Source: Botryllus schlosseri | Lineage: Eukaryota | Assembly: GCA_051294905.1 (NCBI GenBank) | Contig: CM119372.1 | Span: 2,668,001 to 2,732,000 of the forward strand | DNA: 64,000 nucleotides | Direction: 5' to 3' | Shown: positions 4,905 to 32,764 of the stretch, in pieces | Layout: every line of letters begins with the position of its first letter | Numbering within the stretch: the first letter of the stretch is position 1 | Notes under the pieces: generated by a model | Database searches by the model: none | Told to the model about the DNA's origin: nothing | Seen by the model: only the letters and a program-made list of their open reading frames with translations | Position numbers and translations under genes: made by a program

Positions 4905-5798
4905 CAGTGTTGGGATCAAGTCACTACCTTCGAGTCACGAGTCATTTCGAGTCATTGCACATTTTGACTCGAGTCAAGTCAAGTCACTCGATTTTTGGAG
5001 GTGACTCGAGTCAAGTCGAGTCAAGTCAAGTCAAGTCACGAGTCAAGTCACAATTCAAGTCAAGTTGCCTTTTCGAAGTATGAGGTATGATTACGTCATT
5101 GCATTTTGCTAGCTGTCTGAAATACTGATTGCGTCGTCATAGATTTTGAACAGATGAACGAATATAGGGTTGAATATACACGCGAGAAGGCATTGTATCG
5201 CTCACATATACGTAAAATTGCTGATTGCATAGCCTCAGTTTATAATTACCAGCCGAAATAGAGAATAGAGAAACGAATTGATAAGATGCAATACATTACC
5301 CATTTACAAACTGATATGATACAATTCGAGCCTGCGCCAGTGGCTGAGGACTATATACACTATATTCAACGTCAATTAATAAAACAAGAGGCTTGGTTAA
5401 GGTAAGAACAAAGAACAGAAATAGACATTTTGCTATTAAATTACTTTACTATACCAGTTTACGACAACGTAAGCTGTAAGCTTCGATAACTTTGTTTGTG
5501 GTCAATTTATTTGTGAGATTACAATGGAGGCTCAGTAAAACGCACGATCATTGAATGATTGGTCGCTCTCACGGGTTACACTAGCGTTTCTCGAACAATC
5601 CGAAGATAAGCAAGATACAGTGATTTTTATCAACACCTATTACTTGATGACTTGAAATTGACTCGTGAATTTTGCTCCGAGTCACGAGTCAATCCACTTT
5701 TCTGATACGACGAGTCAAGTCAAGTCAAGTCAATTTAGAAAGTGACTCGAGTCAAGTCAAGTCACACGAAAAAGGTGACTCGAGTCATCCCAACACTG
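4905..5798. mobile_element. hAT-type MITE family A (CAGTGTTGGGAT TIR, GAGTCAAGTC subterminal arrays)
   Basis: Perfect TSD ATGTGATG; other copies at 20311-21197, 40636-44790 and 56529-56870. Confidence 0.92.
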
Positions 5799-5955: not shown

Positions 5956-8900
5956 CTATATATCTATTACTTCTTCTGATATTATTCGTTCTCCTGTAGT
6001 ATAATTGCATGGTTGACCGTCCCATTTCCATTGCTGTCCTGTCAATGCTTCAAGCTTTCTGTTGAAAGATTCGTAAAATATTCGTAATTTACCGCAAGCA
6101 TTCGCTGTCCCTGATGTACAGTTCCCTTTGAATGTTCCTTGCCCGCTATTAACGTCGCATTGCAGTCTAGGAACGTCAAAATTTGTAGCACGGACTTCAC
6201 GGTGTTCTTTGTACCACCACGGACGCAAACAAAAGCTACCGGTTCCTGGATGTCGCGCAAATGAAGTAGCATGCAACACAACTGGAATTGACAGAAAGCG
6301 TTGGACCGACTCAATGTGGGAGCCAGGATCCTGTTGAAACGTGTCGCCATTCATGATCATAATTCTCGAAAGAGTAAATACATCCATCCACCGCCGGATA
6401 TATTCAGAATACAGCCCAAACGCATATATGGAAAGCTGCTGACTTGCGTGTATTTTGCTTCTTATTTTATCCGAAACGCGTTTATTGCCTTGAAATATGT
6501 TCTTTACTAGCGACAAGTAGGTCTGTGCGTGTTCAACAAAACTGCGCTTTGCCATCCCCGACTTTTTCGCTCTCTGAAATGTTGAAGTTCAGTATACTTC
6601 CACTAATCGAGGCACATTGATGTGATATACATATATGTAGGGTTGTCATAAGTCCGAAATTTCACAGTAAAAACTGCGTCCGGGAGGAAATTCTAAAATA
6701 TGCCGAAATGTCCGGACTGTCCGGAATTTTGAACTAATTTTCTTGTCAATTGTTCCAGTAAAAGTGAGAGTATAATATAATAACATAAGCACTTTTGTAA
6801 GTAGTTTAAAATAGACGAAACCTTCTTGAGTACTCCAAAAAAGAAGACTTAGGCCTACTACGTACTGACCACCTCTATAGGTAGGTAGCAGAGATGAGCG
6901 GATTTGGAATTTCTATTTCCTAATCCAATCCAAATCCGAACCTTAAAAATCCAAATCCTAATCCGTAACTTTCTCATATCCAAGTCCATGTCCAATCCTA
7001 ATCCGATTCCAACTGGAAATTCAGAAAAAGTGCTAATTTATGCAAGGGAGGGGTTAGAAAATTTTCTTTCACAACCAACGATGCCCTTGATTCAAGATAA
7101 CTTAGTAATCATAAGTAGCCTACATTAATAACTGATCCGAATAAAGTTTGTCGCCATTCGCCACACGACATATCAATCTCCCAGAAAATAGGTAAATCCA
7201 ATCCAAATAGTAATCCGTTTAGAAAAAAATCTCTAATCCTAATCCAATCCAAATCCGACAAAATTTGACAAATCCTGTTTTTTCAAATCCTAATCCTAAT
7301 CCATGCTCATCTCTGGTAGGTAGGTTATGATAGCTATCAAATTATTATTGATGACGAAGATGACACGATGATGATAAAACATGCACGTCCGTACATTGGA
7401 TGTGTAAGCGGAAAGAGCCCTTTTCACTGGATCACAGATGACGAAAATGAGCTTTACTCCTGGACAGTCACGATTGATTATAGATGGAAGATTTCTCATG
7501 GGGGCGTAGAAATAGCTAGCTGATGATTCCAGTATGATCTCGTCTGCCGTTGCGTTAAGTAGAGTGGACCTGCAAAGTACAACAGGGATGCGGTCGCGGG
7601 TGGCGTAATTGTGTTGATATCGCCCCTGATCAGTGATGAGTCGGGTTGGTATTGGCGACCTTGGCCTCTCTGATATAGAGTATACACGTAAAAGCGTGAT
7701 CTGGTAACAGTCATGGACAATTAGATAATTCTAGTTGTCTAAATATACTAAGAGCGAACTGTCGGTAATCTAATTATGAGCTAATTAGCGAAATGTTTCC
7801 ATGCTCTCACTATGATTTCAATCTAATTCCTGGTTTACATGAAAATGCTACACGAGAAATGTTTAGTGCGAAACGAGCCAGGCTTGGTGTATAGAGACTG
7901 CTTATGAGAAATGAACTCTGATTTGGAATGAACTGAACTGGGTGTTTATTGTATTTCCGTCTATTTCGCAATTTAATCAAATTTGTTGTTCAGATCATTC
8001 AGTAATTCAAATTTAAAACTAGTTCGGGAAAACTGTGTGGATAATTCCAATTCTAATATAGTTTGAGAAAAGTGAATATTTTATAATTGTCCAACTCTGC
8101 CTGGTAAATTGCTGGCACACAATCACTTTCCGGTAAGAAATATATTTTCACAGTTTACAAAATTAATGCTTCACTAATTTTGAATCAAAGCTATTTGTCG
8201 ATGGCCTATAATAGGAAACATTATTGCCCCCATTTTAGGTTATATTACATGCCACACGTTTATATGTTTACTACATGTACAGTACATGATCAAAGTTGAC
8301 TTTCTTGTTAATATCAATCACAAACACACTTATCAGTAATATGTTTCAGTTTCTTTTCAAAGTTTTATTCAATCTCGAGCTGGAGAAAGTAAATTATGTG
8401 ATATTAGACCAATTTAGGGAATGATATCTTTAGCAAAATTGAAGCATCATACAGCGTTACAATCCTTATGGTACACCTATATACGTTCTATTTCGTATTA
8501 TTGTAATGTACCGATACCTATAGTATCGTAAATCTCGTTTACGATTTCTTGTATAGAAGTTGGTCGTGGTTTTCGTATATCTCACGAGAGGATGGTGATC
8601 CAGAAAAAATGTAAGTTTATCAGCCTCGCATCCAGCTGCTCCAATCACGATCACGTCGGGTGTTCGACTATAGCTTTTCTGAACCAGGAATAGAGGAAAA
8701 CAACGTCTGATTTGCTTTAGAATCCACATGAAGGCCTACTTACTTTCGTCGTGGAATTTCTGAGAATCTCCAATCGCAATTCGATTTCCATTTGTATCTT
8801 CTTCCTGCGAAACTCTGTCGAGAAACATAGCAGTTTTGTACATTGGTATCACTAAATAATCACAGCCCGATTAGTAGCTTAAAATGCGCCTAGAAATGTC

Positions 8901-11900
8901 CGACACGTGAGAGTTTATGGCAATGATTCCTTGCCCATGGTCCACGGAACGCTATGAGGTTCTCAGGAGGGCAAGACACGCGTGTAACTCATGTGATTTG
9001 TGATAATACGCCCGTCTTGACCATCATTGCTTGCAGTTAATTTGGCGCGATAAGTAGTCGAATTGTGACTGTTGGTGTGCTATGTCGTGTGCAGTGGCGT
9101 ACTTAGGGTAGGTTGGGGTTCAAAATGGAAACCATGTCCTTGGTATCACGTATCATTGCGTTTAGACTAAGTGATTTTCGCACTGGGGGACGTGAAAGCA
9201 TCTGAGAAGAGGTGCAAAGCCACCTGAGATAAGTCATGTTTCTTGATCAAGGAATGAGTTTAATTTGTGCTGAAACTTCCACATTTCAACATTGGAAAAA
9301 ATCCTAATTATATTTCGATTTTAAATGTCATAATTGCGTTGTATCATCCATATACTGATTCTAGATTTTGGCTGATATCGAGCCTTCCATTAATCTGAAG
9401 ATATCGCTGAATGAAGTGTTACTGGTGAATGCGTATAGCTATTCTCCTAGGGTTGCATTTAAAAGAAACGATGTTTTAAAACACTTTCTTTAAAACATGT
9501 TTTAAACAGTGTTTTAAACAAATACCTTTAAAAAAATGTGTTTTTTTAAGTTGTAAAATTATGCCATAATTACGCAAACAATTTCCAAAAAACATGTTGT
9601 ATGGGCCTACGGACAATTATACCACCCCATTTATCCGACGTATATCGATATGGGATGGTTGGCACCCTCAGAATAATCGGTTCAACAGTTATAGTACAGA
9701 TATTCCGTCAAAGGCACTATATTTACCCTATATTTTCAATTGTCAATGTCAATGTTAATCCATTATGGCGTCACAATTGAATATTTATGACGTAACTTGA
9801 AAAAACAAAAAAAAAAACAATAAAATTCATGTTTTAAATTAGGGCTTTGTTTTAAACATGTTTGTTTTTAATTGATTTTTGTTTTAATGCAACCCTATAG
9901 GTGCCGTTTTTTTTTCATTTAGCTTATGGTCAGGTACGTTTAAGCAAAGCGCAAGTGGAGCAATAGAACGGATTAGGCACCAAGACGTAACACCTCGCAT
10001 TTCTTAACTGGTATCTTCAAAAACCACTCTGATTTCGATGAATGTTCATTCTATTGTTTTCGTTTTGTGTGGAAATCATATTTTGATGTCAGTCAGTCAG
10101 TCAGTCAGTCAGGCTTATTAATATTTTTATCGTTTCAAAACATCACAAGACTGCGATACAATGAAAAGATAGGAGGGTGTCGAAACAACTTGGAGTAACC
10201 ATTAAGATCAGACACCCACCTTAGCCTAGGCGAAGTAAATAAGAGGCATGCACACTGAATGAAAAGTAATGCAGAGAATATAAGACGCAAGCGACAAAAT
10301 GGGGTGGCATGTGGCGGATGGCGAGGTCGATGTTAGGTCGTGGTCCGGTAATCCTGAAGACTGTCTAGTATGTATAAGATGTCTATAGTCAAATGTTTAC
10401 TGGGGTAGATTTTTCTTTGAATGACCCAACGAAAACTTTGTGTTACGCCAGGGCCGGGCAACATACGGCCCGCGGGCTCGCGACGGGATTTTTTCCGGCC
10501 TGCGGCCCCAGTCTGCCGAGATTCCCCACTACTTGCTTGAACGTCAAATTTTAGTGACTGTATGTTATTATATACGTGTGTGCGCAGCGTACGCGAGTAG
10601 AGCTTACGGGTAAGTTTGTCGAAGCGAGAAGACTTGCATTATTGGCATTAACCATGTACTCTACCCTAATGAATTGATATCTTGGTAAATATGGGATACC
10701 GGGCTTATCGAACGCCTTGAAATCCTAATTAAGGATTGCACCATAGTGTCCTATATGGTGTGCACGCAAGTAAATCTCACGGCTTAGTGAAATTGGTCTA
10801 TACGTCACACTTTACATTTGGCTAAAGGCAATTTGACGGTATTTTTTACCGGCTTGCCGAATATTAAATTAGATAAAACTGGTATCAATAGAAAGCTACC
10901 GAGGTACTGATTGCAAAAAATATATAGATTTTATTCTGCTATGGGCCCTGGAACTCAAAAATCACCCTCGAATGTTGCATTTTAACGGAGTTTGGTATTG
11001 TGACGCATCCATTCCGTCTGAGCAGCTCAGGAGCAAGTGGGCACGAGATAAGAGTGAGAGTGTGAATGCTCAATTGGTTGCAAACAATGGCCAAGACGCT
11101 TGCGGTTCGCGCTGCTTTCACTTGCTCCCAGAGGGCATGATTGCGTCACAATACCAAATACCGTTACAATACAACATTTATATTTGCGCAATCAGTACCG
11201 CGGTAGCTTTCGATTGGCACCCGTTTTATCAAATTTCGCGATCGGCAAGCCGGTCACTATAGGACACTATGGTGGCACCGTGTGTTAATTGATCAGTAAG
11301 AAGCAGACATGGCGTCGCCTGTATGACAATGCTATTCTCAAATCTACATTGTCTTCGTCATTATCGGCGAGAAATGGCTTTGAAGTGACATTGCTGTCGT
11401 TAAAATACACTCATTAAATACGATTTATTCCGTGTATAGTGGTAAATGGGCGAAGAGTGTATCGATTCAGCAATCCGGCCCGCCAAGTACTTGATTTTCC
11501 TGTATCCGGCCCTCCGACTGGAGAAGTTGCCCGCCCCTGTGTTACGCGAAGACTTATAGATTACCATAGGTTGTTGTTGTTTATGGTATGCATGGTGTTT
11601 ATCGACTACAGTCGACTACAATGGTCATTTACACCAGGCCGACAATTCTTATTTTTGATTCCGTAACTGCCGACTTGCGGTAGCACCAGCACCGTAACTG
11701 CCGCACCCCAAACCCCCCAATTGGGGGGGGGCGAGCTCGAAGGGGGCCCGAAATTATTTCGTGAATTAGCATAAATCAGAGTATTTTTTGAAAATTTACG
11801 CAATTTTTTCAAAATTTTTAGCGCTGCGCGCGAATTCAGGTAGCCATTTCTATTTATTATTGGGTATTGGGCCATTACCACGCCACGACCCACCAAGACA

Positions 11901-14122
11901 TACAATCAAGTTTTAGGCCATATAACATGCGACTCCAAGAAGTGTGCCAGAACGATCGGCAACGAGAAAACCTTGGCCGAAAAGGTCTATGCCCTTATGA
12001 TGACCGAAGACTTCGTTATATATACAAAATACATATAGGTTTAATTGTCCATAGGCGCCTAAATGACTGGCGCCGAATGTTTCTGTCTTTGCAATCTGAA
12101 CCTCACAAGACAAATACCATCCCGCTGGGAAAAATTTTATGCCAGTGAAGAAATACCAATTTGAAATCGTGTGCGTCTCTTAGTTTAGAAGCCTACGTCT
12201 GGGCGATTCTATATTTTTTGATATAGCAGACTGGAAGTCACGAAATAACATCATCTAACGAAGTCATATCAACGGGTCCGCCCGCCCGAAGATGTTTAAT
12301 TATTATTTACGGGCCCGCCCGTTTTCAAGACACTTCACTCAGCTCTACCGGTAAATCTAATTACGTGAGTAGAGAGGACAATAAATTGATAGCATAATAT
12401 ATATGCAATCGCCGATCTAATTGACCGATTTTATCATAAATTATCGAAAATTTTCGCGCTTCGTGCTGGCTCACAATAAAGTACAGATGATTTCGTGACA
12501 AACGCGAACAACGTGATGGAGGGGTCGTTTCATCAGCCAATGGGAGCCCAAGACCCACGTTTTTGGGGGCCTGACGAGGTGCTGTTTCGTTCCTGCCAAC
12601 GGGTATACGCCCGAAGATGTTTAATTATTATTGAGTGGTCCTACCTTTTCAAACACACCTCACCCAGCTCTACCGGCAAATCTGATTACGTGAGCAGATA
12701 GAAGATCCAAATTGATAACAATATATATGCCATTCCCGATCATACTGACCGATTCAATCATGAATTATAGAAATTTCCCGCGCTTCGCGCGCATAGGCGA
12801 CAAAAGCTTGTTCACTAAATAAACTCCCAACCAATACGATAAATAGCGGTAAACAGGGTATCGCCGGAGGGGGGTCTGGGGGCGAAGCCCCCCAAAAGTT
12901 CGGTCTATAACCCTATGGGGGGCCCAAGACCAAAGTTTTTTTGGGGGGCCTGACGAAGTGCTGTTACGGCCCTGGGTAGCACGGCCCACTTCTAGGCTTT
13001 TTGTAAGACACCGCTTGCGCGGATGAGATGGTGAGAAGGAGCCTATTACATCCAACACGTAAGCAGGAGTTCTAGAGTCGACCTCGGTCATATTCGAACC
13101 CACAAACTATTGGTGTTGGTGTAGTAGCTGTGGCTTATACCATAGGGTTACCATAGTTGGAAATCTAAAAAGAGGACACTTTTTCAGAATTTTCAGACTT
13201 GCAAAGCCGTTTTTCCTTTCACATTTTCAGGTGGTTGACTAAAAAAAGGTCATCTCCGGCCTGAGCGTTACTTCGGTGCTGATTTACGGTATCTCAGTCG
13301 ATTTTGGCCTTTGGCCGTAAATTTCACCGAAACTCTCAAAAAAGAGGACAAAATCTCAAAAAAAACGGACAAAAGGGCGTCTTCCGAAGACGCTTTCAAA
13401 AAGTCAAAAAAGAGGACAAATCCTCTTGAAAGTGGACGTATGGCAATAGCAACCCTATTATACCCCTACTATCTCTCCACCTTTACCGTAGGTGTTCCAC
13501 AAGTTAGTAATGTTCAAAACCACTGATTTATGGGAATGTACTAGCTTGCATACACTCTAGATCAGAGGTTCTCAAACTGGTGGGGACTGGGGGAGGGGAG
13601 GGGGGCTGCGTGAAAGCATCTGAATGGGCTGAGAAGCTGCGGTCAACTGAAAAAAATCTCGTTCCCCGCGCGATTCACCTCCAATTCATACTTATTTCTC
13701 TATATATAGTCCGAATCTTATATTTTAAAATTCTCTCATCAACAGTCATAACATTCCATGCCATTAAACTATCCGTTGGGGTTTCTAGCATTCTCGTTGC
13801 ATTTTGTGATATGACGATAAAAGGGGCGCGAAATGTTTCGCCATGGCAAAGGGGGGGCGTGTCCAAAAAAGTTTGAAAACCGCTGCTCTAGATCCAACCC
13901 GAATGTACGCAACTCCGTTCAAATGTTCTTGGATGTAAAATATGAAGGCGTCGTAGTTGGCTATAGCCTACCTTCGATTCGTAACCGTATCCGGTGATAA
14001 TCTTTGACTTTCCTCATTCTCCCGCGATCTTGGTGTACCTCCGCGACATAGACCAATACCTGGAGACTAACCAATGTCACCAACACTACCGCGCATATAT
14101 GGAAGAATCTCAAAGAGAACAT
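5956..14122 (-). CDS. HS3ST-like sulfotransferase-fold protein, copy 1 (391 aa, type II membrane); catalytic motifs degenerate, probable pseudoenzyme
   Basis: Hand-spliced exons 14122-13972, 8814-8744, 8678-8518, 7569-7395, 6573-5956. All introns GT-AG with compatible phases 1,0,2,0; 1176 nt, no internal stops. N-terminal signal anchor MFSLRFFHICAVVLVTLVSLQVLVYVA. Fold motifs RTPDVIVIG, KLIFVICDPVKRALSAY, GLYSEYIRRWMDVF, LRIFYESFNRKL. Exon structure matches the paralog at 25681-32764. Confidence 0.85.
6889..7315. mobile_element. hAT-type MITE family B (CAGAGATGAGC TIR, AATCC repeats), 427 bp, intronic
   Basis: Perfect TSD GTAGGTAG; same-length copy at 41834-42260. Confidence 0.92.
9448..9897. 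mobile_element. MITE (TAGGGTTGCATT TIR)
   Basis: TIRs at both ends; homologous to 16930-17263; TSD eroded. Confidence 0.75.
10088..10370 (-). mobile_element. 3' end fragment of CR1/L2-group LINE with (TGAC)n tail
   Basis: Reverse complement matches 58590-58888 and the 3' UTR of the LINE at 62541-63700; (GTCA)6 at 10088-10111. Confidence 0.8.
10449..11539. mobile_element. Charlie/Buster-type hAT non-autonomous element (CAGGG..GGGCAAC TIR) with nested insert
   Basis: Perfect TSD TGTTACGC (central TA); ends related to 38682, 47496 and 51565 copies. Confidence 0.88.
10742..11271. mobile_element. CATAGTGTCCTATA-TIR element nested in 10449-11539
   Basis: 14-bp TIR catagtgtcctata/tataggacactatg; a related partial copy ends at about 4228. 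Confidence 0.7.
11687..12974. mobile_element. Non-autonomous hAT-type element, family F (CAGnnCCGTAAC TIR)
   Basis: Perfect TSD GGTAGCAC; inverted copy at 52881-54362; internal duplication around 12280-12530/12605-12790. Confidence 0.85.
12990..13480 (-). mobile_element. Putative tRNA-derived SINE interrupted by the 13143-13457 element
   Basis: B-box-like GGGTTCGAA followed by GAGGTCGACTC on the minus strand; body recurs inverted at about 14475-14580. Confidence 0.4.
13143..13457. mobile_element. hAT-type MITE family D (TAGGGTTACCAT TIR)
   Basis: TSD TTATACCA/TTATACCC; homologous to 31329-31729. Confidence 0.8.
13563..13885. mobile_element. Charlie-type hAT MITE
   Basis: TIR cagaggttctcaaact/agtttgaaaaccgctg; perfect TSD CTCTAGAT (nTCTAGAn, typical of Charlie). 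Confidence 0.85.
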
Positions 14123-17745: not shown

Positions 17746-18004
17746 TGTTATGTTTGTGCATTCACGTTTTAGTGTCGTACAACTATTTCTTTCTATAGGA
17801 CTAGTAATTACCGCCAATCATTATTTCCTCGTGTGTCGTGCTTGTATTTATACCCTTTTTGTCTTCTGTTCTCTGTGGTCTTTCGTTTAACTGAACTCTG
17901 GATCGTGTCGCCTGTCTTAAAGTCATACTGCTGTTAATATACTGATTTCATATTGCAACCTCGTCGTATTGAGTTATTGTTCAAACAAGATCAAGAACAT
18001 AACA
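17746..18004 (+). repeat. 5' LTR (259 bp)
   Basis: Direct repeat of 23167-23424; begins TGTTATG, ends ATAACA. Confidence 0.95.
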
Positions 18005-18006
18005 AT

Positions 18007-18024
18007 TGGTGTCAGAAGTCGGAT
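18007..18024 (+). promoter_or_regulatory. Primer-binding site, tRNA-Leu type
   Basis: TGGTGTCAGAAGTCGGAT, 2 nt after the 5' LTR; near-complement of a eukaryotic tRNA-Leu 3' end (TGGTGTCAGAAGTGGGAT). Confidence 0.8.
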
Positions 18025-18097
18025 TCATAGTTATTTCTGCGACTGAGATTCATCATGCGGAGTCAATCATATTGAAGCTGCTCGAGAAGCAGCAGGC

Positions 18098-21000
18098 AAT
18101 GATGGCGAGTCTACATGAAACCATGGCCAATCAACAGGCACAGCGTCAAGAAGATATGGAGCAGCAAAAAGCTCGGCACAGAGAAGATTTGGAGCAACAA
18201 CGCGCACAGCACAAAAAAGAAATGGCGCAGTTAACGCAGAGGTTGAGTCCCGGTGCGTCAACATCTGAAGCTACCGCTCCCAACTTTGATTCGTTCATCA
18301 AATCTAAGGAGAAATGGGACCAATTTCTGCAACGATCCATCACCTAGCAATTTACGGCATTTCCAACATTGAGAAGAAAAGAGCGTGTCTACCCTCATGG
18401 GTTGGACCAGAAACGTACTCGCTCCTGCGTAATTTGTTTGGTGATGCTGATGTCAGTGCGCAAACCTTCGACGCGTTTGACTGAGAAGCTGTCTACACAC
18501 TTCAAGGACTCAATACATGTGCAAGCAGCCAGGTACGAATTTTACAATTGCAAAATACAACCGGGACAGTCATACGCCGATTGGATCGCTACTCTACGCG
18601 GAATCTCCAAGGATTGCAACTTCACATGCTCTAGAGATGGCTGTGATCAGAGCTACGTTGATGAGCTAATGCGCGATCTCATCATTAAAGAAACGCCGCA
18701 CGCGGATGTGAGACGGCATTGTCTAACACAAACCAATCCATCCCCCGACGACGTTCTCAAAGTAGCCGCAACACACGTGAGAACGCTGGAAACCGATAGG
18801 GTTATCCAGGGCGAGAGTAGCGGAAAAGACACTTCCATCATCAACAAAATGACGGGAAGTAACAAAATGACGGGAAGTTATCAGAAGGGGAAAAAACCTT
18901 CCAAATCCACCCAAGGCAATTTCCGGAAAGACTGAAATCCTGCAGCCGCTGTTTCATCGATCACCAGAGAAAATACTGTCAATATCGAGATGCAGTATGT
19001 CAGAAATGTGGTCGTAAAGGTCATATCAAACCTGTGTGCATGTCTACCAAACCTAGTATCACGCAACAGGTCACATCCATCAATTTCTGCTCAGTGCCGC
19101 TCCTCTCCTTCGACATCGATCAACTATATCGACGCGTAGGAAACCAGCTCTGGATCAACTCCAGCATCAACGGCATTCCGTTGCCGACACAGTGGGACAC
19201 TGGTGCACCCTCCGCCATGGTGGGATTGACTGGGTACAAAACTTTGGGCTCTCCGAAACTCTCCGCATACCATTGCTCTTTCGTAGCGTACGGCGACAAG
19301 CCTTTGAAAGTGAAAGGTATTTGCACTGTAACCGTGCAGGTGGGTTCCGAAGATCGAGTTGGCTTAAAATTAGTAGTTCTCGAGGAACACCGTGGGCAAA
19401 ACATTCTCGGTCTCGATTGGAGCGATGCTTTCTCCATGACCGCTAAGGGAACGTATTTCCTCGCTGATGGTCGAATCGCAATCATGTAATACTATTGACA
19501 TTTCTGATTCGAACGACAAATTGGCATCTTTTCAGTCCAAATTTCCCTCTGTTTTCTCTAATGTATTAGGACGATGCACCAAGACAAAGGTGACAATTCA
19601 CTTGAAACCTAATGCCAAGCACGTATTTAACAAGCCACGTCCTTTGCCTTTCGCAAGACAAATCGCTGTTCAAACCGAATTGGATAGATTAGTCAATCAA
19701 GGTATTCTGGAACCAATCAATTACAGTGATTGGGCAGCACCAATTGTTGCCGTCACCAAGTCTAATGGATCAGTACGCATTTGTGGTGACTTCAAAGCAT
19801 TGAATCAACAGATACAGATCGATCAACATCCCCTGCCCTCCTTAGATGAAATCCTTCACAAGTTACAGGGTGGTTGTATTTTCACGAAAATTGATCTTGC
19901 CGATGCTTATTTTCAGCTAGAATTAGATGATGATGCGAAGAATTTGTGTGTCATAAACACGCAATTCGGTCTTTTCCGTTATCGACGCATGTGTTTCGGA
20001 GTCGCATCTAGTCCCGCAAATTTTCAACGCTGTATTGATGCCATGATCGCCGGCTTACCCGGTGTTGCTAGTTCTATCGATGACATAATCGTTACTGGCA
20101 TTGATGAACGCGATCATTTTCGCAACTTATCGCTACTCTTTGAGCGCCTCACCGAATACGGTTTCACCGTTAACTTCGCGAAATGCGAATTTTTCAAAAG
20201 TAGTATCGAGTATCTTGGTCACATAATTGACAAGGATGGCAAGCGCCCGTCTAACAAATCCGTTGAAGCAATCAAACAGTTGCCTAATCCTCAGGATGTT
20301 CGCCAGCTACCAGTGTTGGGATGACTCGAGTCATGACTTGACTCGAGTCAGACTCGAGTCACTTTTTCGTATGACTTGACTTGACTCGAGTCACTTTGCT
20401 AAAATGACTTGACTTGACTTGACTCGGCGTATCAGAAATGTGGTTTGACTCGTGACTCGGAGCAAAATTCACGAGTCAATTTCAAGTCATCAAGAAATCG
20501 TTGTCGATAAAAATCACTGTATCTTGCTCGTGTTCGGATTGCTCGCGCAAGGCTGGTGTAACCCGTGATAGCGACCAATCATTCAATGATCGTGCGTTCT
20601 ACTGAGCCTCCATTGTTCTCTCACAAATATATTAATCGCAAACGAAGTGATCGAAGCTTACAGCCTATACCTTGTAAACTATAGTATTGTTTTATTGAAA
20701 TTGAATTCGAAAATAGTTTATATAGTTCTCAAGCATTGGTGCAGGCTCGAATTGTATAATATCAATTTGCAAAAGGGTAATGTATAGCACCTCATCTGTA
20801 TTTTTGCTGGTAACTATAAACTGAGGCTGTGCAATTTCTTATACGTAGTTTATTAGTTCTACATATATGTGAGCGATACAGCGCCTAACTTGCGTGTTAC
20901 TTTCGTGCGTGCGGTTCAAAATCAATGACCACTCAATCTTTATTTTAGACAGCTAGCAAAATACAATGACGTGATCACGCCTCATACCTCGAAAAGGCAA

Positions 21001-23133
21001 TTTGACTTGAATTGTGACTTGACTCGTGACTTGACTTGACTTGACTCGTCTTGACTCGAGTCACTTCCAAAAATCGACTGACTTGACTTGACTCGAGTCA
21101 CCTTCGAAAATCAATTGACTTGACTTGACTCGAGTCAAAATGTGCAATGACTCGAAATGACTCGTGACTCGAAGGTAGTGACTTGATCCCAACACTGCCA
21201 GCTACAGGCATTCCTGGGCAAAGTCAATTATTATCGCGCGTTTATTCCTAATTTCACGAATAAAGCCGCAGCCTTGTACCGTCTTCTTCAAAAAGAAGCG
21301 GAAATCATTTGGAATACGGACTGTGACGCAGCTTTTCGCATTCTCAAAAACGACATAATCGACACTACGCAGCTAGCTCATTATGATGTGAACAAGCATC
21401 CCATTTTGTCAACGGATGCTTCTCAATTCGGAATCGGCGCTGTACTCTCAATCGAGCACAATGGCGAAGAGAGACCGATCGCGAACGCATCCAAAACGCT
21501 TTCCGATTCGCAAAAATCCTACTCTCAAATAGAGAAGGAAGCTCTGTCAATCATTTACGAAGTCACTAAATTTCGTCAATTCTTGTATGGTAGAAAATTT
21601 ACGCTCGTAACGGACCACAAACCGCTTTTAGCTATTTTCTCGCCAGACAAGAAAATTCCTGTGATTACAGCGCAACGCTTACAGCGATCGGCACAGCGAT
21701 CGGCACTAACGCTCATGGCTTATCAATATGACATTCGCTATAAACCGACTAATCAGCACGGAAACGCCGACGGTTTATCTCGCCTACCAAATGGTCTGAG
21801 TTTGACGAACTGGAAATTCGTGAAAACGCGAAGATCGTTCACGCTATTAATATGGCATTCGATGGCTTACCGTTAACTCGCAATGAAATTCGCGACGCGA
21901 CGCTCAAGGACAAAACCATGAAACTAGTAAAATTATCTGTCACTCATGGTAATTGGATTCCAAAGACGCACATTGATGATTTTTCTTGGTTTTCGACTCG
22001 CAAACATTCGCTTTCTCTGCACGAATAGTCATGCTCAATATTGATGGTTTTCATCGCGTAGTAATTCCGCAGTCACTTCGCTCACGAGTCTTATCATTGT
22101 TGCACGAATGACATTGGGGTATCGCGAAAATGAAGCAGATGGCTCGACGTTACATCGCATGGCCTTCCATTAATCGCGACATTGAAAATATCGATAAGAG
22201 TTGCGACGCTTGCCGTAAGGTAATGAAAGCGCCTGATCGTCAGTATCGCGAATGGCCAAAAACTTCTGAAAGCTTTGAACGAATTCACTTGGATTTCGCA
22301 GGTCCAATGAACAATAAAATGTTTCTTGTCATCGTCGATGCGCATTCGAAATATCCTTTCGTTAAAGCAATGAATGTCGGTTCTACCACAACCTTGTGTG
22401 TGGTCAACGCTTTGAGGGAAGTCTTCTCTATCGAAGGCTTGCCCATAACAATTGTCACGGATGGCGGGCCGCAATTCACATCGAATGAATTCGATACGTT
22501 TTGTTCTAATTTGGCAATCAGCCACATCGTATCACCGTCTTTTCACCCTGCCTCGAACGGGGAAGCGGAGCGTTTCGTCCAGACTTTAAAAGCTGGATTA
22601 ATAAAAAATTGCGACGGGGGAAAAGATCTCAACTTCGCGCTCCAAACACTTCTCGCTACGTACCGATGTGCACCGCACCCGGGCATAGACTGGAAAACGC
22701 CTGCTGAGATTTTACACGGTCGGCAGCCGCGCAATTTGTTAAGTTTGTGCTCGCCCTTCGACAAATCGAAACCTGTTACGCCTAGACAATCAGTCGCTCA
22801 TTTGAGATTGGTTCCTCGGTTTACGCTCGTAGCTACCGACGCGGACCAAAGTGGGTTGCTGGCGTGGTGACGGAAATAATGGGCCGCGTGGTGTACATTG
22901 TAAAAACAGATCATGGGTATTGTAGGAGGCACAAAAACCAACTCCAACCACGCTTGATTTCAGCTGGCAGTAATACAGCCATACTGGAAGTTGTTCAACC
23001 TCAGCAACCTCAAGTTGAGCAGCCATTGGTTAGGAATAGGGCACAACGTCCTGCAGCTAATCCCGCCCGTACGTCGGGTAGACGTTATCCTCTTAGGAAT
23101 AGGAATCCCACCGATTTCTATAGACCTACGTAA
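18098..23133 (+). pseudogene. Disrupted gag-pol of the Gypsy element
   Basis: Broken into ORF pieces 18006-18347, 18369-18935, 19034-19489, 19467-20324, 21274-21876, 22130-22870, 22864-23133 by frameshifts, stops and a MITE. RT YxDD reads SIDD. Confidence 0.9.
20311..21197. mobile_element. MITE family A inserted in Gypsy pol
   Basis: TIR CAGTGTTGGGAT; perfect TSD CCAGCTAC. Confidence 0.95.
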
Positions 23134-23166
23134 ATGTGGGCAACCTCTCAACTTACAGGGGAGGAC

Positions 23167-23424
23167 TGTTATGTTTGTGCATTTACGTTTTAGTGTCGTA
23201 CAACTCTTTCTTTCTATAGGACTAGTAATTACCGCCAATCATTATTTCCTCGTGTGTCGTGCTTGTATTTATACCCTTTGTCTTCTGTTCTCTGGTCTTT
23301 CGTTTAACTGAACTCTGGATCGTGTCGCCTGTCTTAAAGTCATACTGCTGTTAATATACTGATTTTTTCACATTGCAACCTAGTCGTATTGAGTTATTGT
23401 TCAAACCAGATCAAGAACATAGCA
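23167..23424 (+). repeat. 3' LTR (258 bp)
   Basis: Differs from the 5' LTR by about 6 substitutions and 3 small indels (counted by eye). Confidence 0.95.
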
Positions 23425-25680: not shown

Positions 25681-28600
25681 CTATCGAAGCCAACTCCAAT
25701 CTTCCCAGAGAAGGTCCCTGAGATCTTTGTTGAACGGCTCGTAGAATTCTCTGAGCTTCTCCTCCGCTCGCGGGCGTAACTTATATTTTGAAACGCGGCT
25801 TCTTGTTCGACCTTTGATTTTTTTTTCAAGACATAGATGAAATCTTGAGTCATCCAGATCGGCAACGCCATACATGTCATCCCACCATGTGCGCAGACAC
25901 GACAGACCAGTGGCTCTGTTCGTGAAAAAATCTCGCCGTTGCAGCATCACTGGTACTGCTAGAAACTCTTGAATGGAAACAATAGTTAGACCGGGATCTT
26001 TCAGAAAGGATTCTCCATTTAATATAAGGAGGCGATCTTTAGGAAAAGCATTTACCCAGCGAGGTAGAAAGTATGAATACGCCCCTGTGAGGTAAGTTGT
26101 CAAATGGGCGTTCTTTTTGACTGCGAGTAAAACATCCTCAAATGCGTCGTCGTTTAATAGCTTTTGCGCTTGTGGCAAAAGAAGTTCAATGTGACGTTCG
26201 AAAGACATATTTTTGTACTTCGACCGCGGAAGCTCAATCTGAAATAGTTATGGAGGCTGAATTTATCGCATATAGGTCATACTTGGAAAACTGTAATTCT
26301 AGCAGTCTAATTACAAGGGATTCTCAACCTGTGGGTCATATGCCTATTTCAGGGGCACTATAATTCTATTAAATGTCGTTTTTTTTAATCTTTCGAAGGT
26401 TTGAAGATAATGAAGGCTCATTACGTTTTTAAAATTTTCAATGGAGGTCACAGAATTAAAAAGGTTTGGAATCCCTGGATTAGACTAAATAGAGCGGGAT
26501 CCCTGTAATCACATTCTCATCTAATTTCTGAAATGTTTCTACGCTATAATTTTAATTCTAATCTGATTCCTTTTTTTGAATGCTACGGAATGAACTCCAA
26601 TTTATACGAACTTAACTTGATTCAATTTCCAAGCTCTCACGAATTCGACAAAATACGGTGCAGCTATAATTCCAATTCTAATCTACTTTGGAAAATTCTA
26701 GCTAGAATTCTAATTCTAATCTAATTTGGAAAAGATGAAAATTTTCTAGTTGTCAAACTCTGATATAGGTAGATGATAAGAACGTCACGAACATGTAGTA
26801 TTTTTAATTATCTGACCGAATAGCCGGATTTTTACTCAGCCTCTAGCAGTGCCACACTTCCACATATACCCTCTATTTCAAGTTGGAAATGAAACATCGT
26901 ATCTGATTTTACCGCCGCTAAATGAACCTTTGTGACAACTCGTTACGATCAAAAGGTTGTTGGCCTATTTTTCAGGAATGGCACGAATCCCAAATACGCT
27001 TTCCTTTGACTGTGGAAACGCGTTGATTCGAAGCTAGCATACACCGGTAACCTTCGCTGAGTATGTTTTTGAAAACGCAGCCAACAGTGGCAAATATGCT
27101 CCCATATATAATCAAACTTCTTTGCATTGGAGTTGTCGGTCCCATACTGAAATTGCTATACCTAGTTTTAAATCAATCTAATATGCCTCTCACTCGCTGA
27201 ATAAATTGTGGACATTTCATTCAAGTGCGTGATTAATTTGTCAGAATATATAGGCATCCTTTCCAGAAGACCATGTAGAATTGGGGACGGCACTGCTAAC
27301 ATACATAGTGGGCAACTATATAGAACAGAATACACCTATATAAATGAGCATGAGCATGAGCATAGATATATGCACAATAAGGAAAATGTCCTAAACTAGA
27401 GGAGCATTGTAGTCAATCAACAGAATGCGAAAAGTTTTTACTTTGGGATCTGGCGCATTGCTATTGATGGAATTGCGATATGCGGTATTGTGACAGCCCA
27501 CCCATTATCGGTAGGGTTACCATTTGTCCTCCTTTAGGATGATTTGCCTCCTTTTCGGGAAATCAAAAATCTCCTATGAAGACGCTTAAATGTCCTCCCT
27601 TTCGGAATTCACCCGCTTTTATCGCTTTGAGAGACAGGAAGAACATAAAACGGCATAAATTACGTGAAATCTGCAATGCCGAAGCGAAAGCAAAACAGCG
27701 GTTCATGTCGACTTCGCATGCGGCAAGCGGGTGGTATTTCCGACAGACCCAACCCGGGCCCCCTAACCACGGATAATATACATTCACCTACGTTACCAGA
27801 AATCGGCATAACATTTGTAATTTAGCTACTCACCCGATTAGCATAGTCGGACAGAGACCGTTGAACTGGTTCGCACAGAATGATAATTAGTTTAACGCCA
27901 GGGCAATCCCGCTTGATAATTGACGGCAAGTCTTCGGGCAGTGATGTAAAATAAGCCGGGGTCTTGTCCACAATCAACTGTTGCGCGGTGGCGTTTTCCA
28001 GCAAAGATCTTAACGGAATATATATGCTACAAGAACTGCGCTGTTATGCATATTCCAGGACATGGAGCGTAAGCGGATTAGCATTTCCGTGCCATTATTG
28101 CGAGAAAGAAATTTTGTAATCTCGTTCTAATCTAATTTCCGGAATGTTTCTTTGCTCTAATTTCAATTCCCTAATTTTTGAAATATTTATACGCTGTATA
28201 TAATGCGAAGCGAGCCAAATTTTCTGTATACAGACATATTCCATTCTACTACGGAAGAGAATGAACTCATTTGTAAAAACGATGTAGCTTCTAATTCAAA
28301 TCTACTTTGGAAAAGCCGAAATCTTCCTAGTCATCCAACTCTGGATCGAGATAGGGTTTAGGCTCCACGTCCAAGTCACACATGTAATTACTCACCCAGA
28401 AAACTATAACTGTAGCTATCATCGTTTCATGTTATCAAAACGAGTATAAATTAAACTGTCTCTTTCTCTATTTGCAAATACCAAATTTCGCCACTTGCGA
28501 ATTAGTCTTTGTTGTCGCATTGTGTGTTCGATAAAAATACTGTTATACTACTTATAATATTTCAAAAACTTGCATATAACTACATTGCTACATGTACCGC

Positions 28601-31600
28601 GTGTTATTAGACTGCGTACGTTAAATTCCCAGGGACAGGCCGCTGAAACTGAAACTGACCTAAGGGTGTTGGAACACAATCAGGCCGTGGCAATGAACTC
28701 TGCCATTGGCAGGCATTTAGCTGAGCATGCTACTTGCGCCAATAACTATAGTGACGACAGATTCTCAATTTTGGGTAAAGGCCGCACACTTTTCCACTTG
28801 TCCGCGCTGGAATCGACATTCATTAAGATCCATCAACCACGCTTATGCCAGCAGAAGGAACGTTTGCTTCACCTAAAAATTGGCCACTAGCTGCGCTCGC
28901 GGCTTGTCTGCACTCGATGTTGTTTTTGTTCGTATGACGTCACAATTGGCTGTATGCAATGTAGTTATATGCAAGTTTTTGAAATTCTCTTTATGCCGAC
29001 GATTACTACTTATAATATCCAAGTCCTTTGTCCTGGTGTTTATCGTAATAGTGAGATTCCTCGCTCGTCACGAGTAGCGGGTGACTTCCCAAAAACACAC
29101 GAAGAGCGCCCGTCCCGCATTTCCTTGCCCCGATGATTATTACGTCTGGTGTTCGATTTTGCTTTGGCTGTAAACAGCATTAGAATCAAAGCCAGGAGTG
29201 GGAAAAACTACAGCCTGCCGGCCCCATGAAGCCCGCAACACCGTTTTGTTCTGCCGGCGAAAGGCTCAAGAAACGTATTAGAAATATTGATAAAATGCAT
29301 ACTAAAATATAAATACTGCACGGATTCGATTAAATTTTTTCTTATTTTATTTCATCACGATAATTATATGTTATATTCTTATTATAGTATATTTTTACTT
29401 CATTGCTGACGTGATAGCCCGACCTCGAGGCCCACGCATTTTAAAATGTTTCAACTGCTAAACATCACAGAAAGTCAAAACGGGAATGATCGAGTATAAT
29501 TTTACATAGGCCACTCTAGCAAGTTTATTACTTTGAATGCAGTACTTGATAAAAAAAAACTAATAGCGAGTGTGTTAGGTGGATTCATTCTCTGTAAGTG
29601 CAGAAGCATTTATATTTATAACATCTACATATTTTAGTGCTGGGAGCGATGAAGCTAGCATGGTTATGACGCTGTCAGCATTGTGTCTCCTGGAGTTGAA
29701 CCAAAAGTAGAATCAGCGAATCTATAAAGAGATCACTGCTTTCAGATTCAAATATCTATCCTGTTCTGAGAATCAGGACAACCGACTTTCACCCGTAGTT
29801 TTGAAAAGTGGTTATGGAGGTTGAACAGCTGCGATGCGGCTCGCGAGTTAAAAAGTTTGCCCACCCCTGATCAAAGCGAACAATATACGAACGAACAATA
29901 AACAATATACCTCCAAATCGATTAACATCTCAAGGCGGCTGCGTTCGGCTTTCCTGATTTCAAGAGCCAATTCATTTATCCGTTCGGTATCTAAATGAGA
30001 GCGTTATAATATTACTATTGGCATGATATATTTCTCTATGTATTTTGAAACCACACATCTTGGATTTTATTGGGACCAAATTATGATCGGTAACCAACAA
30101 AGTAATACGATGTCGCCAAATTGAATTTTTACAAGCAACTTAAGTAAATCTACGACAATAACGACGTAATCACTGAATCGGTTATCCAACATGGTTGTTA
30201 ACCTGCGGTAATAGTTTAAGAAATGGGATTTTCTATCTTATATGCCAATGACTTTGTGAAACAAGATCGCATATGGTGGTTTTGATGAGCTGGTTTCAAG
30301 GTTTCACCGGACAGGGGGCTATATGTAAAGAGAATCTCCCCTTTTTCCACAATTTGTAATTGCGAGATCGGAAACTGCATCACTACTGATGACGCAGTGG
30401 TGACAATTTATACGTGCCGGGAAAGTAAACAGCGCAAAGTTCGAACAAATATTCAGGTCACCATCACTATATGCCGAAAATAGGCCGCATTTTGTATGTT
30501 GGTTTCTGAAATACAGTTTGCCTCCTCGAGCTTATCTTTATTCACGTATTCCATATAGCATCACCCTAGATATCAAAGGTGGTCAGTAACGAAGTAATTC
30601 TACTTTTTTTTTTAAATTACTCAAGTAGTTTTCCTCTACTTCTAGTACTTACTCAAATAGATCTAGTTTTTGCTACTTCTATTTCATAATATTTTGTGAT
30701 CTACTTACTTACTTTTCGCTATTTTCAGTATGTCAAGTAGAAGTAGTTTAATCATCCAATCAAGAAGATAGCCTGAGGAATTTCGGGGCTGTTTTCACGG
30801 ATTATCAACATTTAATTTTCAGAAAAGTTGAGTAAAGCCAAAATTTTTGTCGCACTTCGCGCACGGTGGATATAAAGTAACCAATATGGTTTCACGAAAG
30901 TATCGGTCAATATAATTTAGGTAGCGGGTTGCATGGTTCCGTTCACACCGCATTGTCGCCCTATGAAATATTTCATCACGGTATATTTGGCCCATCATAG
31001 CGTTTGAAACTGATGTTTCGCAAGCTAGCATTTACTTATCATATCGTAGTCTAGCAGTCCATGGCATGTCCTAATCTGGAACAGTGGACTATGACTTTTT
31101 GGTAGCTTTAGACCGGTTTTAGCATACAACCTTTGACACTTTCCGGACTAAAGACATGAAGTACATTTTCCGCTTTTAGAAGTAGTAATTATATTCCACT
31201 ATCAATTCCTAGTATCATACTTTGAGTTCTGATTGGTATCAGTTCTTTTGTCTGGATCACATACATGTTTAAATATAAAAGCAAGTGTAGTAATGCCTTT
31301 AATTTCCGGAAATAAAGCTACACAATATTAGGGTTACCATACGTCCTCTTTTTTGACTTTTTTGAAAGTATCCTCAGAGGACGCCCAAATGTCCGCTTTT
31401 TTTGAGATTTTGTCCACTTTTTTAAGAATTTTTGTTAAATGTTAGGCAAAATTGACTTAGATACAGTAAGTCGACACTGAAGTAACGCTCCAGCCGGTAT
31501 TTCGGGAGCTGGGCCGTAAAGTTGACCTTTTTTTAGTCAACCACCTGATAATGTGAAAGAAAAACTGTATTTTGGGCGCTGAGCGAGAAAGTTGACCTTT

Positions 31601-32764
31601 TTATTTAGTCAACCGATCACGAAGGGGGTAAAAATTAGACCATTTCTTCAGGATTTTCCCTCAGTTTTGCTAGTCTGAAAATTTTGAAAAGGTGTCCTAT
31701 TTTCGTATTTCCAAAATATGGTAACCCTACACAATATGGCATTTTTACGATCCACCATATTTTTATTGACGTTTACTAATCGCTCAAAGTGTTTACACCG
31801 TATCCAATACAACTTCTCCGTATTGCTCTTCGACTAAACTGTGGGCCTTATAATATGGGGGAGGGTGCCATACCATGATGTTTTCTAAAACGTGCTAAAA
31901 CAGAGAATTAGTATCGCATTTCCATATCAATACTATCATTTTCACCCCATCATGCCGTGGAACGCTTATGCTGTCGAAAAATGGATACCTCCTGGTATGC
32001 ATCAATATGAATCAAGACCTGCACCTCTCGCCTAGCTCAATTTGCAGCTTTTGACAATCAATGCGAACGAATTACGATCGTTTTCACATCTACCTACTTA
32101 CTTGAGTAGATTTAAAGTCAGTCAATTCTACTTCTACTTCAAGTAGTTTTAGGTTGCTTATATAAGAAGTACTTCTACTCGTACTTGAGTAATTTTTTTT
32201 CGCTACTTCTAATTCTACCTAAGTAGCTTTCTTGATTACTTTGACCACCTCTGCTGGATATGCAGAAGACGAGACGACAAAGTTTGATATAGACATAGAA
32301 TGCGCCGACATCATGATTTGTTCGAACAGGAATTTAGATAGGATTTAAAATTTCGGTGGGTCAGATTTGGATATGGAATTTCGAACAAAGCCGAAAAGGG
32401 TGGTACACGAAAACAGAACCTAATTCAGAATTATAGCGCGGTTATAAATCTTACGTGCATGTGCATACATTCCTACGTGCATGCATAATTTGGATTAAAA
32501 TTTTGTACTCGATTTATACTGCGGTATAAGTCTGAGGTATACCTGCACCCTTTTCAGCCGTTTGGGTGTGAATACACACTATGCTATGAGTCTATTATAT
32601 TTCCCTATACCTTCCTGATTGTTGAATTCCGACCGATGGAGCGGCTGCTGCTCAGTTTCCCGGTTATTTACATTATCACTCTTCCTAATATTGACTAACA
32701 TTCGATAGAGTAGAACAAGAAGTGCAACGCTGACGATATATATTATCTTGGAACGCGTAGTCAT
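25681..32764 (-). CDS. Heparan sulfate glucosamine 3-O-sulfotransferase-like protein, copy 2 (374 aa, type II Golgi membrane protein)
   Basis: Exons 32764-32611, 29990-29911, 29167-29010, 28008-27834, 26238-25681 (GT-AG, phases 1,0,2,0; 1125 nt). TM anchor IIYIVSVALLVLLY; 5'-PSB loop IIIGARKCGTGAL; EESHYYD; DKTPAYF; LCEPVQRSLSDY; CLEKKIKGR; LREFYEPFNKDL. AATAAA (minus strand) at 25625-25630. Confidence 0.9.
28620..28890 (+). mobile_element. Penelope-like element 3' fragment (GIY-YIG C-terminal part), intronic
   Basis: SAIGRHLAEH...FSILGKGRTLFHLSALESTFIKIHQPRLCQQKE resembles the SAIxxHL / LExxxIxxxxPxLN motifs of Penelope GIY-YIG endonucleases. Confidence 0.7.
29193..29869. mobile_element. 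Charlie-type hAT MITE in intron 2 of HS3ST-like copy 2
   Basis: TIR caggagtggg/cccacccctg; perfect TSD ATCAAAGC. Confidence 0.85.
30574..32253. mobile_element. Family C element (inverted relative to 1302-2562) with nested family D
   Basis: Full-length homology to 1302-2562; TSD CTAGATAT/CTGGATAT. Confidence 0.9.
31329..31729. mobile_element. MITE family D
   Basis: TIR TAGGGTTACCATA; perfect TSD CACAATAT. Confidence 0.9.

What the first reader, a model, noticed from the sequence alone, without database searches (positions are those of the whole stretch)
5956..14122. Intact-ORF pseudo-sulfotransferase next to an apparently active paralog
Seen: copy 1 keeps a 391-codon ORF, TM anchor and all four splice junctions, yet each functional motif is changed relative to copy 2. 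The PSB loop GARKCGTGAL becomes GAAGCEADKL, EESHYYD becomes TTTNFYT, DKTPAYF becomes ESSASYF, and KIKGR becomes SGQGT. Established: in HS3ST enzymes the PSB Lys/Gly-Thr, the Glu of the ExHFFD motif and the C-terminal KGR lysine mediate PAPS binding and catalysis. Inference: selective loss with fold retention suggests a catalytically dead glycan-binding or regulatory partner rather than random decay.
Basis: partly seen in the sequence, partly recalled or inferred. Interest (0 to 1): 0.7.

Follow-up and report, generated by a model that had tools for sequence, protein, structure and literature searches.

The report
Catalytically dead sea-squirt sulfotransferase copy
A sea-squirt gene for a sugar-sulfating enzyme was duplicated long ago, and one copy has lost its catalytic residues yet stays intact and looks conserved, so it probably has a non-enzymatic job that is still unknown.

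Summary
Observation confirmed. Copy 1 (minus strand, 14122-5956) is a five-exon, 391-codon gene with a type II membrane anchor. Its intron phases match copy 2 (32764-25681, 374 aa). Both resemble heparan sulfate 3-O-sulfotransferases (HS3ST), and the nearest named relatives are ascidian. Copy 1 keeps 0 of 9 residues listed as important for 3-OST-3 activity (copy 2: 7 of 9) but 31 of 36 other conserved positions. Contigs from two studies break exactly at the exon-5 acceptor, as spliced RNA would; two raw RNA runs show little signal. A relative about 70% identical over exon 5 differs with no stop or indel, and its changes are more conservative than neutral. The duplication is old, since four-fold sites are saturated. 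Best reading: a constrained pseudoenzyme. Corrections: copy 2's activity is untested, and it also lacks R166, R243 and Q255. Copy 1 has lost the glycan-contact residues too. Partnership with copy 2 is untested. Dead HS3ST-like copies recur (6 of 67 full-domain hits), including an independent dead-plus-intact pair in Styela clava. New variant of a known kind; moderate interest.

The parts
13972..14122 (-). Copy 1 exon 1: start codon, transmembrane anchor (about residues 6-27), start of a basic stem
   Evidence: GT donor, phase 1
8744..8814 (-). Copy 1 exon 2 (stem)
   Evidence: AG/GT; same phase as copy 2 exon 2; no direct RNA joint seen
8518..8678 (-). Copy 1 exon 3: degenerate PSB loop and catalytic-Glu motif
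8613..8642 (-). Degenerate PSB loop, residues 87-96 (3-OST-3 numbering: K162G, G164E, T165A, R166D; Cys kept)
8550..8570 (-). Degenerate catalytic-base motif, residues 111-117 (E184T, H186N, D189T)
7395..7569 (-). Copy 1 exon 4: K215S motif (7529-7509) and 3'-phosphate motif (Cys at the R243 position as in the subfamily; Ser kept; Q255S)
5956..6573 (-). Copy 1 exon 5: C-terminal half of the domain, K368Q/R370T at 6147-6133, extra Cys 338 and 346, and a 21-residue tail with Cys 375
   Evidence: PF00685 28.2 bits, cutoff 22; two contigs break at 6573
25681..32764 (-). Copy 2: five-exon, 374-aa HS3ST-like paralogue keeping K162, E184, H186, D189, K215, K368, R370
17746..23365 (+). Ty3/gypsy-type LTR retrotransposon between the copies (context only), interrupted by a hAT-like insert

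Best explanation
Copy 1 is a pseudoenzyme: an old tandem duplicate of an ascidian HS3ST-like Golgi-type sulfotransferase that can no longer transfer sulfate but is still transcribed and kept folded. SHOWN (sequence): intact gene, type II anchor, loss of the PSB lysine, catalytic Glu and substrate-contact residues, retention of scaffold residues, non-neutral divergence of exon 5. INFERRED from HS3ST/NDST chemistry: with Gly for K162, Glu for G164 and Asp for R166, the loop that binds the 5'-phosphosulfate is neutral to acidic, so PAPS is not bound productively; without E184 no acceptor hydroxyl is activated. INFERRED, weakest step (about even odds given the rest): it sits in the secretory pathway beside the active sulfotransferases and tunes glycan sulfation non-catalytically, as a scaffold or by holding polyanionic chains on a basic surface outside the old cleft. 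Extra cysteines and a C-terminal tail shared with P0001 point to a new interaction surface.
For:: 0 of 9 activity residues (list from PMC8341778) kept, against 31 of 36 other conserved columns. (copy 1 vs P0001, 178 domain codons of exon 5, 48 differences): neutral simulations at this distance stay stop-free in about 2% of runs; 1 of 27 W/C/F/Y changed against about 7 expected (P about 0.001); mean BLOSUM62 0.02 against -0.5 to -0.57 (P 0.007-0.02); no indel in 199 residues. Domain 48 of 178 changed vs tail 13 of 21 (Fisher p 0.002); 32 of 41 four-fold sites differ between the copies (saturated), so the frame has stayed open for a long time; against Styela P0002, 55 copy-1-specific vs 26 copy-2-specific changes, about twofold and far short of neutral decay; a 558-nt contig (X1) and a 676-nt contig (X3), from different studies, stop fitting exactly at 6573 with 124 and 280 letters left over; the exon-5 half folds at pLDDT 81, best Foldseek hits HS3ST1. 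Styela clava has a separate dead lineage (AU p 0.002 against a common origin).
Against: No activity or binding assay. No DNA for P0001, so no true dN/dS. P0001 covers exon 5 only, and it keeps Lys at the K368 position, so it may not be dead, and part of the constraint could predate loss of activity. Changes between copy 1 and P0001 do not significantly avoid family-conserved columns (11 of 50 vs 37 of 125, p 0.35), hydrophobic-to-polar changes are at neutral level (7 vs about 8.5), and 92% of changes are one base from copy 1's codon, which did not separate omega 0.1 from 1. RNA status of X1 and X3 is the tool's guess; none of the 15 joints displayed (of 194) was a predicted intron; raw RNA runs X22 and X20 gave depth under 0.6 on exon-5 bins and 0 on exon-2/3 bins (6% and 3% of the runs read). 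No canonical poly(A) hexamer within 400 nt downstream of copy 1, while copy 2 has one. The fold model used an alignment of relatives and covers half the domain. SULT4A1, long thought inactive, has abstracts reporting activity (listing).
Confidence: 0.6

Rival explanations
1. Relaxed duplicate on its way to pseudogene status: activity was lost recently and the open frame is a leftover.
For: P0001 still has Lys at the K368 position; conserved columns are not significantly spared (p 0.35); many radical one-step changes; near-zero signal in two raw RNA runs; no clear poly(A) signal.
Against: The PSB, E184 and K215 motifs carry many changes while neighbouring scaffold positions are kept, which takes time without decay elsewhere. 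No stop or indel and spared aromatics and cysteines against P0001. Contigs break at the splice acceptor in two studies.
Confidence: 0.17
2. The fold was co-opted as a fast-evolving recognition or matrix protein (for example cell-surface, shed, or tunic-associated) with no link to sulfation by copy 2.
For: 27% divergence made mostly of one-step changes, extra cysteines shared with P0001, a new tail, pI 9.8 and domain net charge +19 vs +5 in copy 2.
Against: Canonical HS3ST-type rows are also basic (+7 to +26). No localisation data. The anchor and stem match a Golgi-type enzyme.
Confidence: 0.13
3. Still an enzyme with rewired chemistry, or a PAP-binding protein.
For: The 3'-phosphate-motif Ser and nearby Arg and Tyr/Phe scaffold positions are kept; SULT4A1 shows that 'inactive' calls can be disputed.
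Against: All nine activity residues are replaced, two of them or their neighbours by acids in the phosphate loop, whereas all 25 sequences of alignment A3 (chosen as intact) keep K-C-G-T, Glu and both Lys.
Confidence: 0.1

Closest known systems
Vertebrate heparan sulfate 3-O-sulfotransferases HS3ST1/3A1/5 (PDB 1ZRH, 3UAN, 1T8T, 3BD9; Pfam PF00685)
   Same: Best sequence and fold matches for both copies; type II anchor; the Cys pair before the KGR loop is kept.
   Different: Copy 1 lacks 9 of 9 activity residues; copy 2 lacks R166 and Q255; both have Cys at R243 and insertions typical of the ascidian clade.
Ascidian HS3ST-like expansion (Styela clava XP_039261439 is the closest named protein; also Phallusia, Clavelina, Ciona)
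   Same: Both copies fall in a 28-row clade (100/97) whose 11 named members are all ascidian.
   Different: These are automatically named, and I found no functional study. Most keep the four core residues; copy 1 keeps none.
Styela clava XP_077967187 / XP_039267651-2 (P0063), beside XP_039267649-50 (P0024)
   Same: 0 of 9 activity residues, the same E-S-S change at the K215 motif, and an intact paralogue with consecutive accession numbers on a contig of the same length (adjacency inferred).
   Different: Separate origin: AU test rejects one clade with the copy-1 group (p 0.002).
SULT4A1 (orphan cytosolic sulfotransferase)
   Same: Conserved sulfotransferase fold; the crystallised protein did not bind PAP or PAPS (PMC11275347 passages).
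   Different: Cytosolic family; keeps PAPS-binding motifs and the active-site His and differs in loop 3; its inactivity is disputed. Copy 1 loses the catalytic residues themselves.

Membership tests
HS3ST-like / PF00685 sulfotransferase fold | Homology to the sulfotransferase domain, nearest to HS3ST | tested here: met
   PF00685 28.2 bits over cutoff 22 on exon 5; PDB hits HS3ST1/3 E about 1e-6; Foldseek
HS3ST-like / PF00685 sulfotransferase fold | Type II membrane anchor and stem before the domain | tested here: met
   Single N-terminal hydrophobic segment; Golgi location itself not tested
Active HS3ST enzyme | PSB-loop lysine (K162) and Gly-Thr | tested here: not met
   G90, E92, A93 in copy 1
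Active HS3ST enzyme | Catalytic base E184 with H186 and D189 | tested here: not met
   T112, N114, T117 (role from PMC8341778)
Active HS3ST enzyme | Substrate-contact residues R166, K215, Q255, K368, R370 | tested here: not met
   D94, S143, S185, Q331, T333
Active HS3ST enzyme | 3'-phosphate motif Arg and Ser (R243, S251; role recalled, numbering counted on the sequence) | tested here: inconclusive
   Ser kept; Arg is Cys in both copies and in 34 of 67 full-domain hits, 27 of which keep all four core residues
Active HS3ST enzyme | Transfers sulfate to glucosamine 3-OH of heparan sulfate | not testable with these tools
   Needs an assay, for both copies
Pseudoenzyme (functional, catalytically dead) | Intact reading frame and gene structure | tested here: met
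Pseudoenzyme (functional, catalytically dead) | Expressed as spliced RNA | tested here: inconclusive
   Two contigs break at the exon-5 acceptor, but RNA status is guessed, no intron joint was displayed, and raw RNA depth was under 0.6
Pseudoenzyme (functional, catalytically dead) | Purifying selection after loss of catalysis | tested here: inconclusive
   Protein-level tests favour constraint, one test does not, no dN/dS, and the N-terminal motifs of P0001 are unseen
Pseudoenzyme (functional, catalytically dead) | Shown inactive, with a shown non-catalytic role | not testable with these tools
   Needs biochemistry and genetics
Pseudogene | Stops, frameshifts, broken splice sites or neutral divergence | tested here: not met

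The most novel reading that the evidence does not exclude
The expanded ascidian HS3ST-like clade, which has mostly lost the uronic-acid-binding Arg (R166), includes the enzymes that 3-O-sulfate the uronic-acid-free alpha-L-galactans of the tunic. Dead tandem duplicates arose repeatedly (this lineage, Styela, Phallusia) as dedicated non-catalytic partners that set the sulfation level of these glycans: a recurrent enzyme-plus-pseudoenzyme module in Golgi sulfation.
Probability: 0.12. Interest if true: 0.72.

Novelty: new variant of a known kind. Interest (0 to 1): 0.42.

Why it matters
Pseudoenzymes are a familiar class (recalled), but five literature searches (listings only) showed no described dead HS3ST-type Golgi sulfotransferase. 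If real, this gives a testable case of non-catalytic control of glycan sulfation, with at least one independent parallel in a species with a public genome (Styela clava). It also shows that automatic names such as 'HS3ST5-like' cover proteins that cannot be active. It points to candidate enzymes for the 3-sulfated tunic galactans reported for Styela plicata and Herdmania monus (PMC3944403 passages). The interest is tempered because dead copies occur at about 9% among hits and are not enriched in this subfamily.

Tried and rejected
No whole genome is held, so paralogue number and synteny could not be checked. tblastn of seven queries found no third copy in the window. Word-index homologue searches: exon 5 against longer proteins, none among 290 candidates; exon 5 near length, 1 of 41 candidates (P0001); exon 4 against longer proteins, none among 34, so no orthologue showing the N-terminal motifs was found. 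Run search: no RNA holder listed. dN/dS between the copies failed because dS is saturated. The share of one-step changes did not discriminate omega. Single origin of dead copies: rejected (AU p 0.002). P0003 as an older orthologue of copy 1 (KGR lost, similar tail; 97/73): not established, since a position outside the duplication is not rejected (AU p 0.225); its N-terminus appears to be intron read-through and was masked in the tree. Enrichment of dead copies in the Cys243 subfamily: not supported (4 of 34 vs 2 of 30, p 0.68). Cys243 and R166 loss as ascidian-only: rejected, two Saccoglossus proteins share them. Rate acceleration was not significant with two more distant outgroups (33 vs 29; 34 vs 29). 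Earlier scan findings: none. PMC8869759 passages held nothing relevant. No supplements were read; supplementary gene lists of ascidian expression studies could bear on expression and on the not-in-print claim.
Full report
Observation. The window is eukaryotic (introns, transposons, about 40% GC). Two five-exon genes lie on the minus strand. Copy 1 has exons 14122-13972, 8814-8744, 8678-8518, 7569-7395 and 6573-5956, giving 391 aa. Copy 2 has exons 32764-32611, 29990-29911, 29167-29010, 28008-27834 and 26238-25681, giving 374 aa. All eight introns are GT-AG with phases 1,0,2,0 in both genes, and each protein has one N-terminal hydrophobic segment. The copies share 36% identity over 286 domain codons, and 32 of 41 four-fold sites differ, so the duplication is old. 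No third copy was found in the window, and no whole genome is held.

Identity. Exon 5 of copy 1 passes PF00685. The best solved relatives of both copies are HS3ST1, 3A1 and 5. The profile-free HMMER search of 1.84 billion representatives gave 232 hits, of which 150 were listed. The best were P0001 (unnamed Logan record, 199 aa, about 70% identical, exon 5 only) and Styela clava XP_039261439. In a 34-row tree (rows chosen by me from these hits, motif columns removed) both copies lie in a 28-row clade (100/97). Of its 26 non-window rows, 11 carry names, all ascidian; 9 were looked up and are unnamed; 6 were not looked up. I infer that the host is an ascidian, probably a stolidobranch. Copy 1 pairs with P0001 (100/99), copy 2 with P0005 (99/91), and these four plus P0003 form a clade (98/95).

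Active site. PMC8341778 (passages) lists nine residues important for 3-OST-3 activity: K162, R166, E184 (catalytic base), H186, D189, K215, Q255, K368, R370. I placed them by counting along the 1T8T sequence shown. Copy 1 keeps 0 of 9, copy 2 keeps 7 of 9, the Styela relative 8 of 9. Copy 1 also has Glu at G164 and Ala at T165. At columns conserved in at least 80% of 32 intact rows, copy 1 keeps 1 of 8 functional and 31 of 36 other columns (p 1.5e-4, post hoc). PMC3733922 (passages) gives the equivalent NDST1 lysines a role in binding the PAPS sulfate. Loss of activity is thus a strong inference but is not measured. Two corrections follow. The same paper places R166, K215, K368 and R370 at the saccharide, so canonical glycan binding is also lost. 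And copy 2 is not a canonical HS3ST: it has Gly at R166, Cys at R243 and Asn at Q255. Of 148 hits aligned (2 of 150 dropped for length), 67 cover all scored sites; 34 have Cys at R243, and only 2 of these keep R166, against 15 of 30 with Arg.

Is it maintained? For: against P0001 there is no stop or indel in 199 residues. In the 178 domain codons, 48 differ. Neutral simulations at that distance are stop-free in about 2% of runs, change about 7 of 27 W/C/F/Y residues (observed 1, P about 0.001) and give lower BLOSUM62 means (P 0.007-0.02). The tail differs at 13 of 21 positions (p 0.002 against the domain). Copy 1 evolved about twice as fast as copy 2 against the nearest outgroup (55 vs 26) and not detectably faster against two distant ones. 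Three cysteines absent from copy 2 (338, 346, 375) are shared with P0001. The exon-5 half folds at pLDDT 81 and matches HS3ST1, though the model leans on the alignment. Against: family-conserved columns are not significantly spared (11 of 50 vs 37 of 125, p 0.35); hydrophobic-to-polar changes are at neutral level; P0001 keeps Lys at K368 (R370 is lost in both) and its N-terminal motifs are unseen; both frames were ascertained as open; there is no DNA for dN/dS.

Expression. Four of 24 listed runs were laid. A 558-nt contig of X1 fits 6140-6573 with 124 letters left over, and a 676-nt contig of X3 fits 6178-6573 with 280 left over. Both stop at the predicted acceptor, in different studies, which is what spliced RNA gives. 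Their RNA status is the tool's guess, none of the 15 displayed joints (of 194, dominated by repeats) was a predicted intron, and X3 also has low depth in an intron bin. Raw RNA runs X22 and X20 (6% and 3% read) gave depth under 0.6 on exon 5 and none on exons 2-3. Transcription is likely and low, or restricted to some tissues.

Parallels. Styela clava P0063 keeps 0 of 9 residues and shows the same E-S-S change at the K215 motif. Its accessions directly follow those of the intact P0024 on a contig of the same length, so I infer adjacency. It has a 48%-identical unnamed relative that also lacks KGR (P0040). A common origin with copy 1 is rejected (AU p 0.002). Phallusia P0106 (1 of 9) is sister to an intact Ciona protein (100/99), which suggests a third loss. 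Overall 6 of 67 full-domain hits keep at most one of four core residues, with no enrichment in the Cys243 subfamily (p 0.68). Whether P0003 is an older orthologue of copy 1 is open (AU p 0.225).

Mechanism. Most likely (0.6) copy 1 is a constrained pseudoenzyme in the secretory pathway. Its acidified phosphate loop excludes PAPS, and it acts by protein contacts or by holding polyanionic glycan on basic surfaces outside the old cleft (domain net charge +19 vs +5 for copy 2, though canonical rows reach +7 to +26). Rivals: decaying duplicate (0.17), co-opted recognition or matrix protein (0.13), rewired enzyme (0.10).

Comparison and novelty. It is an HS3ST-like homologue but fails every tested defining feature of an active HS3ST except the fold, the anchor and the 3'-phosphate Ser. 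It works like other pseudoenzymes (class recalled). SULT4A1 is the nearest sulfotransferase precedent (PMC11275347 passages), but it keeps its motifs and its inactivity is disputed (abstract starts). Searches (listings only; library limited to open papers; no supplements read) showed no account of dead HS3ST-like paralogues or of the ascidian expansion. The boldest reading links the R166-less ascidian clade to the 3-sulfated alpha-L-galactans of the tunic (PMC3944403 passages), with dead duplicates as recurrent regulators (probability 0.12). Verdict: real feature, new variant of a known kind, interest 0.42.

Noticed in passing
window 17746-23365 (+): Ty3/gypsy-type LTR retrotransposon with 98-99% identical LTR segments (protease, RT, RNase H, integrase pieces), so a recent insertion; its pol region is broken into several frames.
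   Followed up: partly
window 4905-5798, 20311-21197, about 40636, 44790, 56870: hAT-like non-autonomous element with 12-nt terminal inverted repeats and 8-bp target duplications; one copy sits 160 nt past the copy 1 stop, another is nested in the retrotransposon pol gene.
   Followed up: partly
window 14442-14656: A 215-nt contig of run X1 (depth 4.7, no differences) lies upstream of copy 1 exon 1; possibly a 5' untranslated exon.
   Followed up: no
window 62780-63850 (-) and about 56987-57706 (-): Non-LTR (LINE-type) reverse transcriptase fragments, flanked by 23-nt tandem repeats.
   Followed up: no
window 8679-8743: Copy 1 intron 2 is only 65 nt, against 743 nt in copy 2; intron 1 (5.2 kb) is packed with repeats.
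   Followed up: no
copy 1 residues 91 and 173; P0063, P0106, P0110: The PSB-loop Cys and the Cys at the R243 position are both kept in these dead members; a disulfide or structural role is possible.
   Followed up: no
P0041, P0104, P0110, P0133, P0149 (one search hits): Further HS3ST-like proteins with partly or fully degenerate catalytic motifs, some under ordinary HS3ST names.
   Followed up: partly
window 28550-28995: Copy 2 intron 3 holds an insert flanked by a short repeat of the exon-3 end sequence, with a 110-codon open frame on the plus strand and no Pfam match.
   Followed up: no
window 36600-38633 (-): Several 110-160-codon open frames in a row without Pfam match, perhaps a decayed mobile element or an unrecognised gene.
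   Followed up: no
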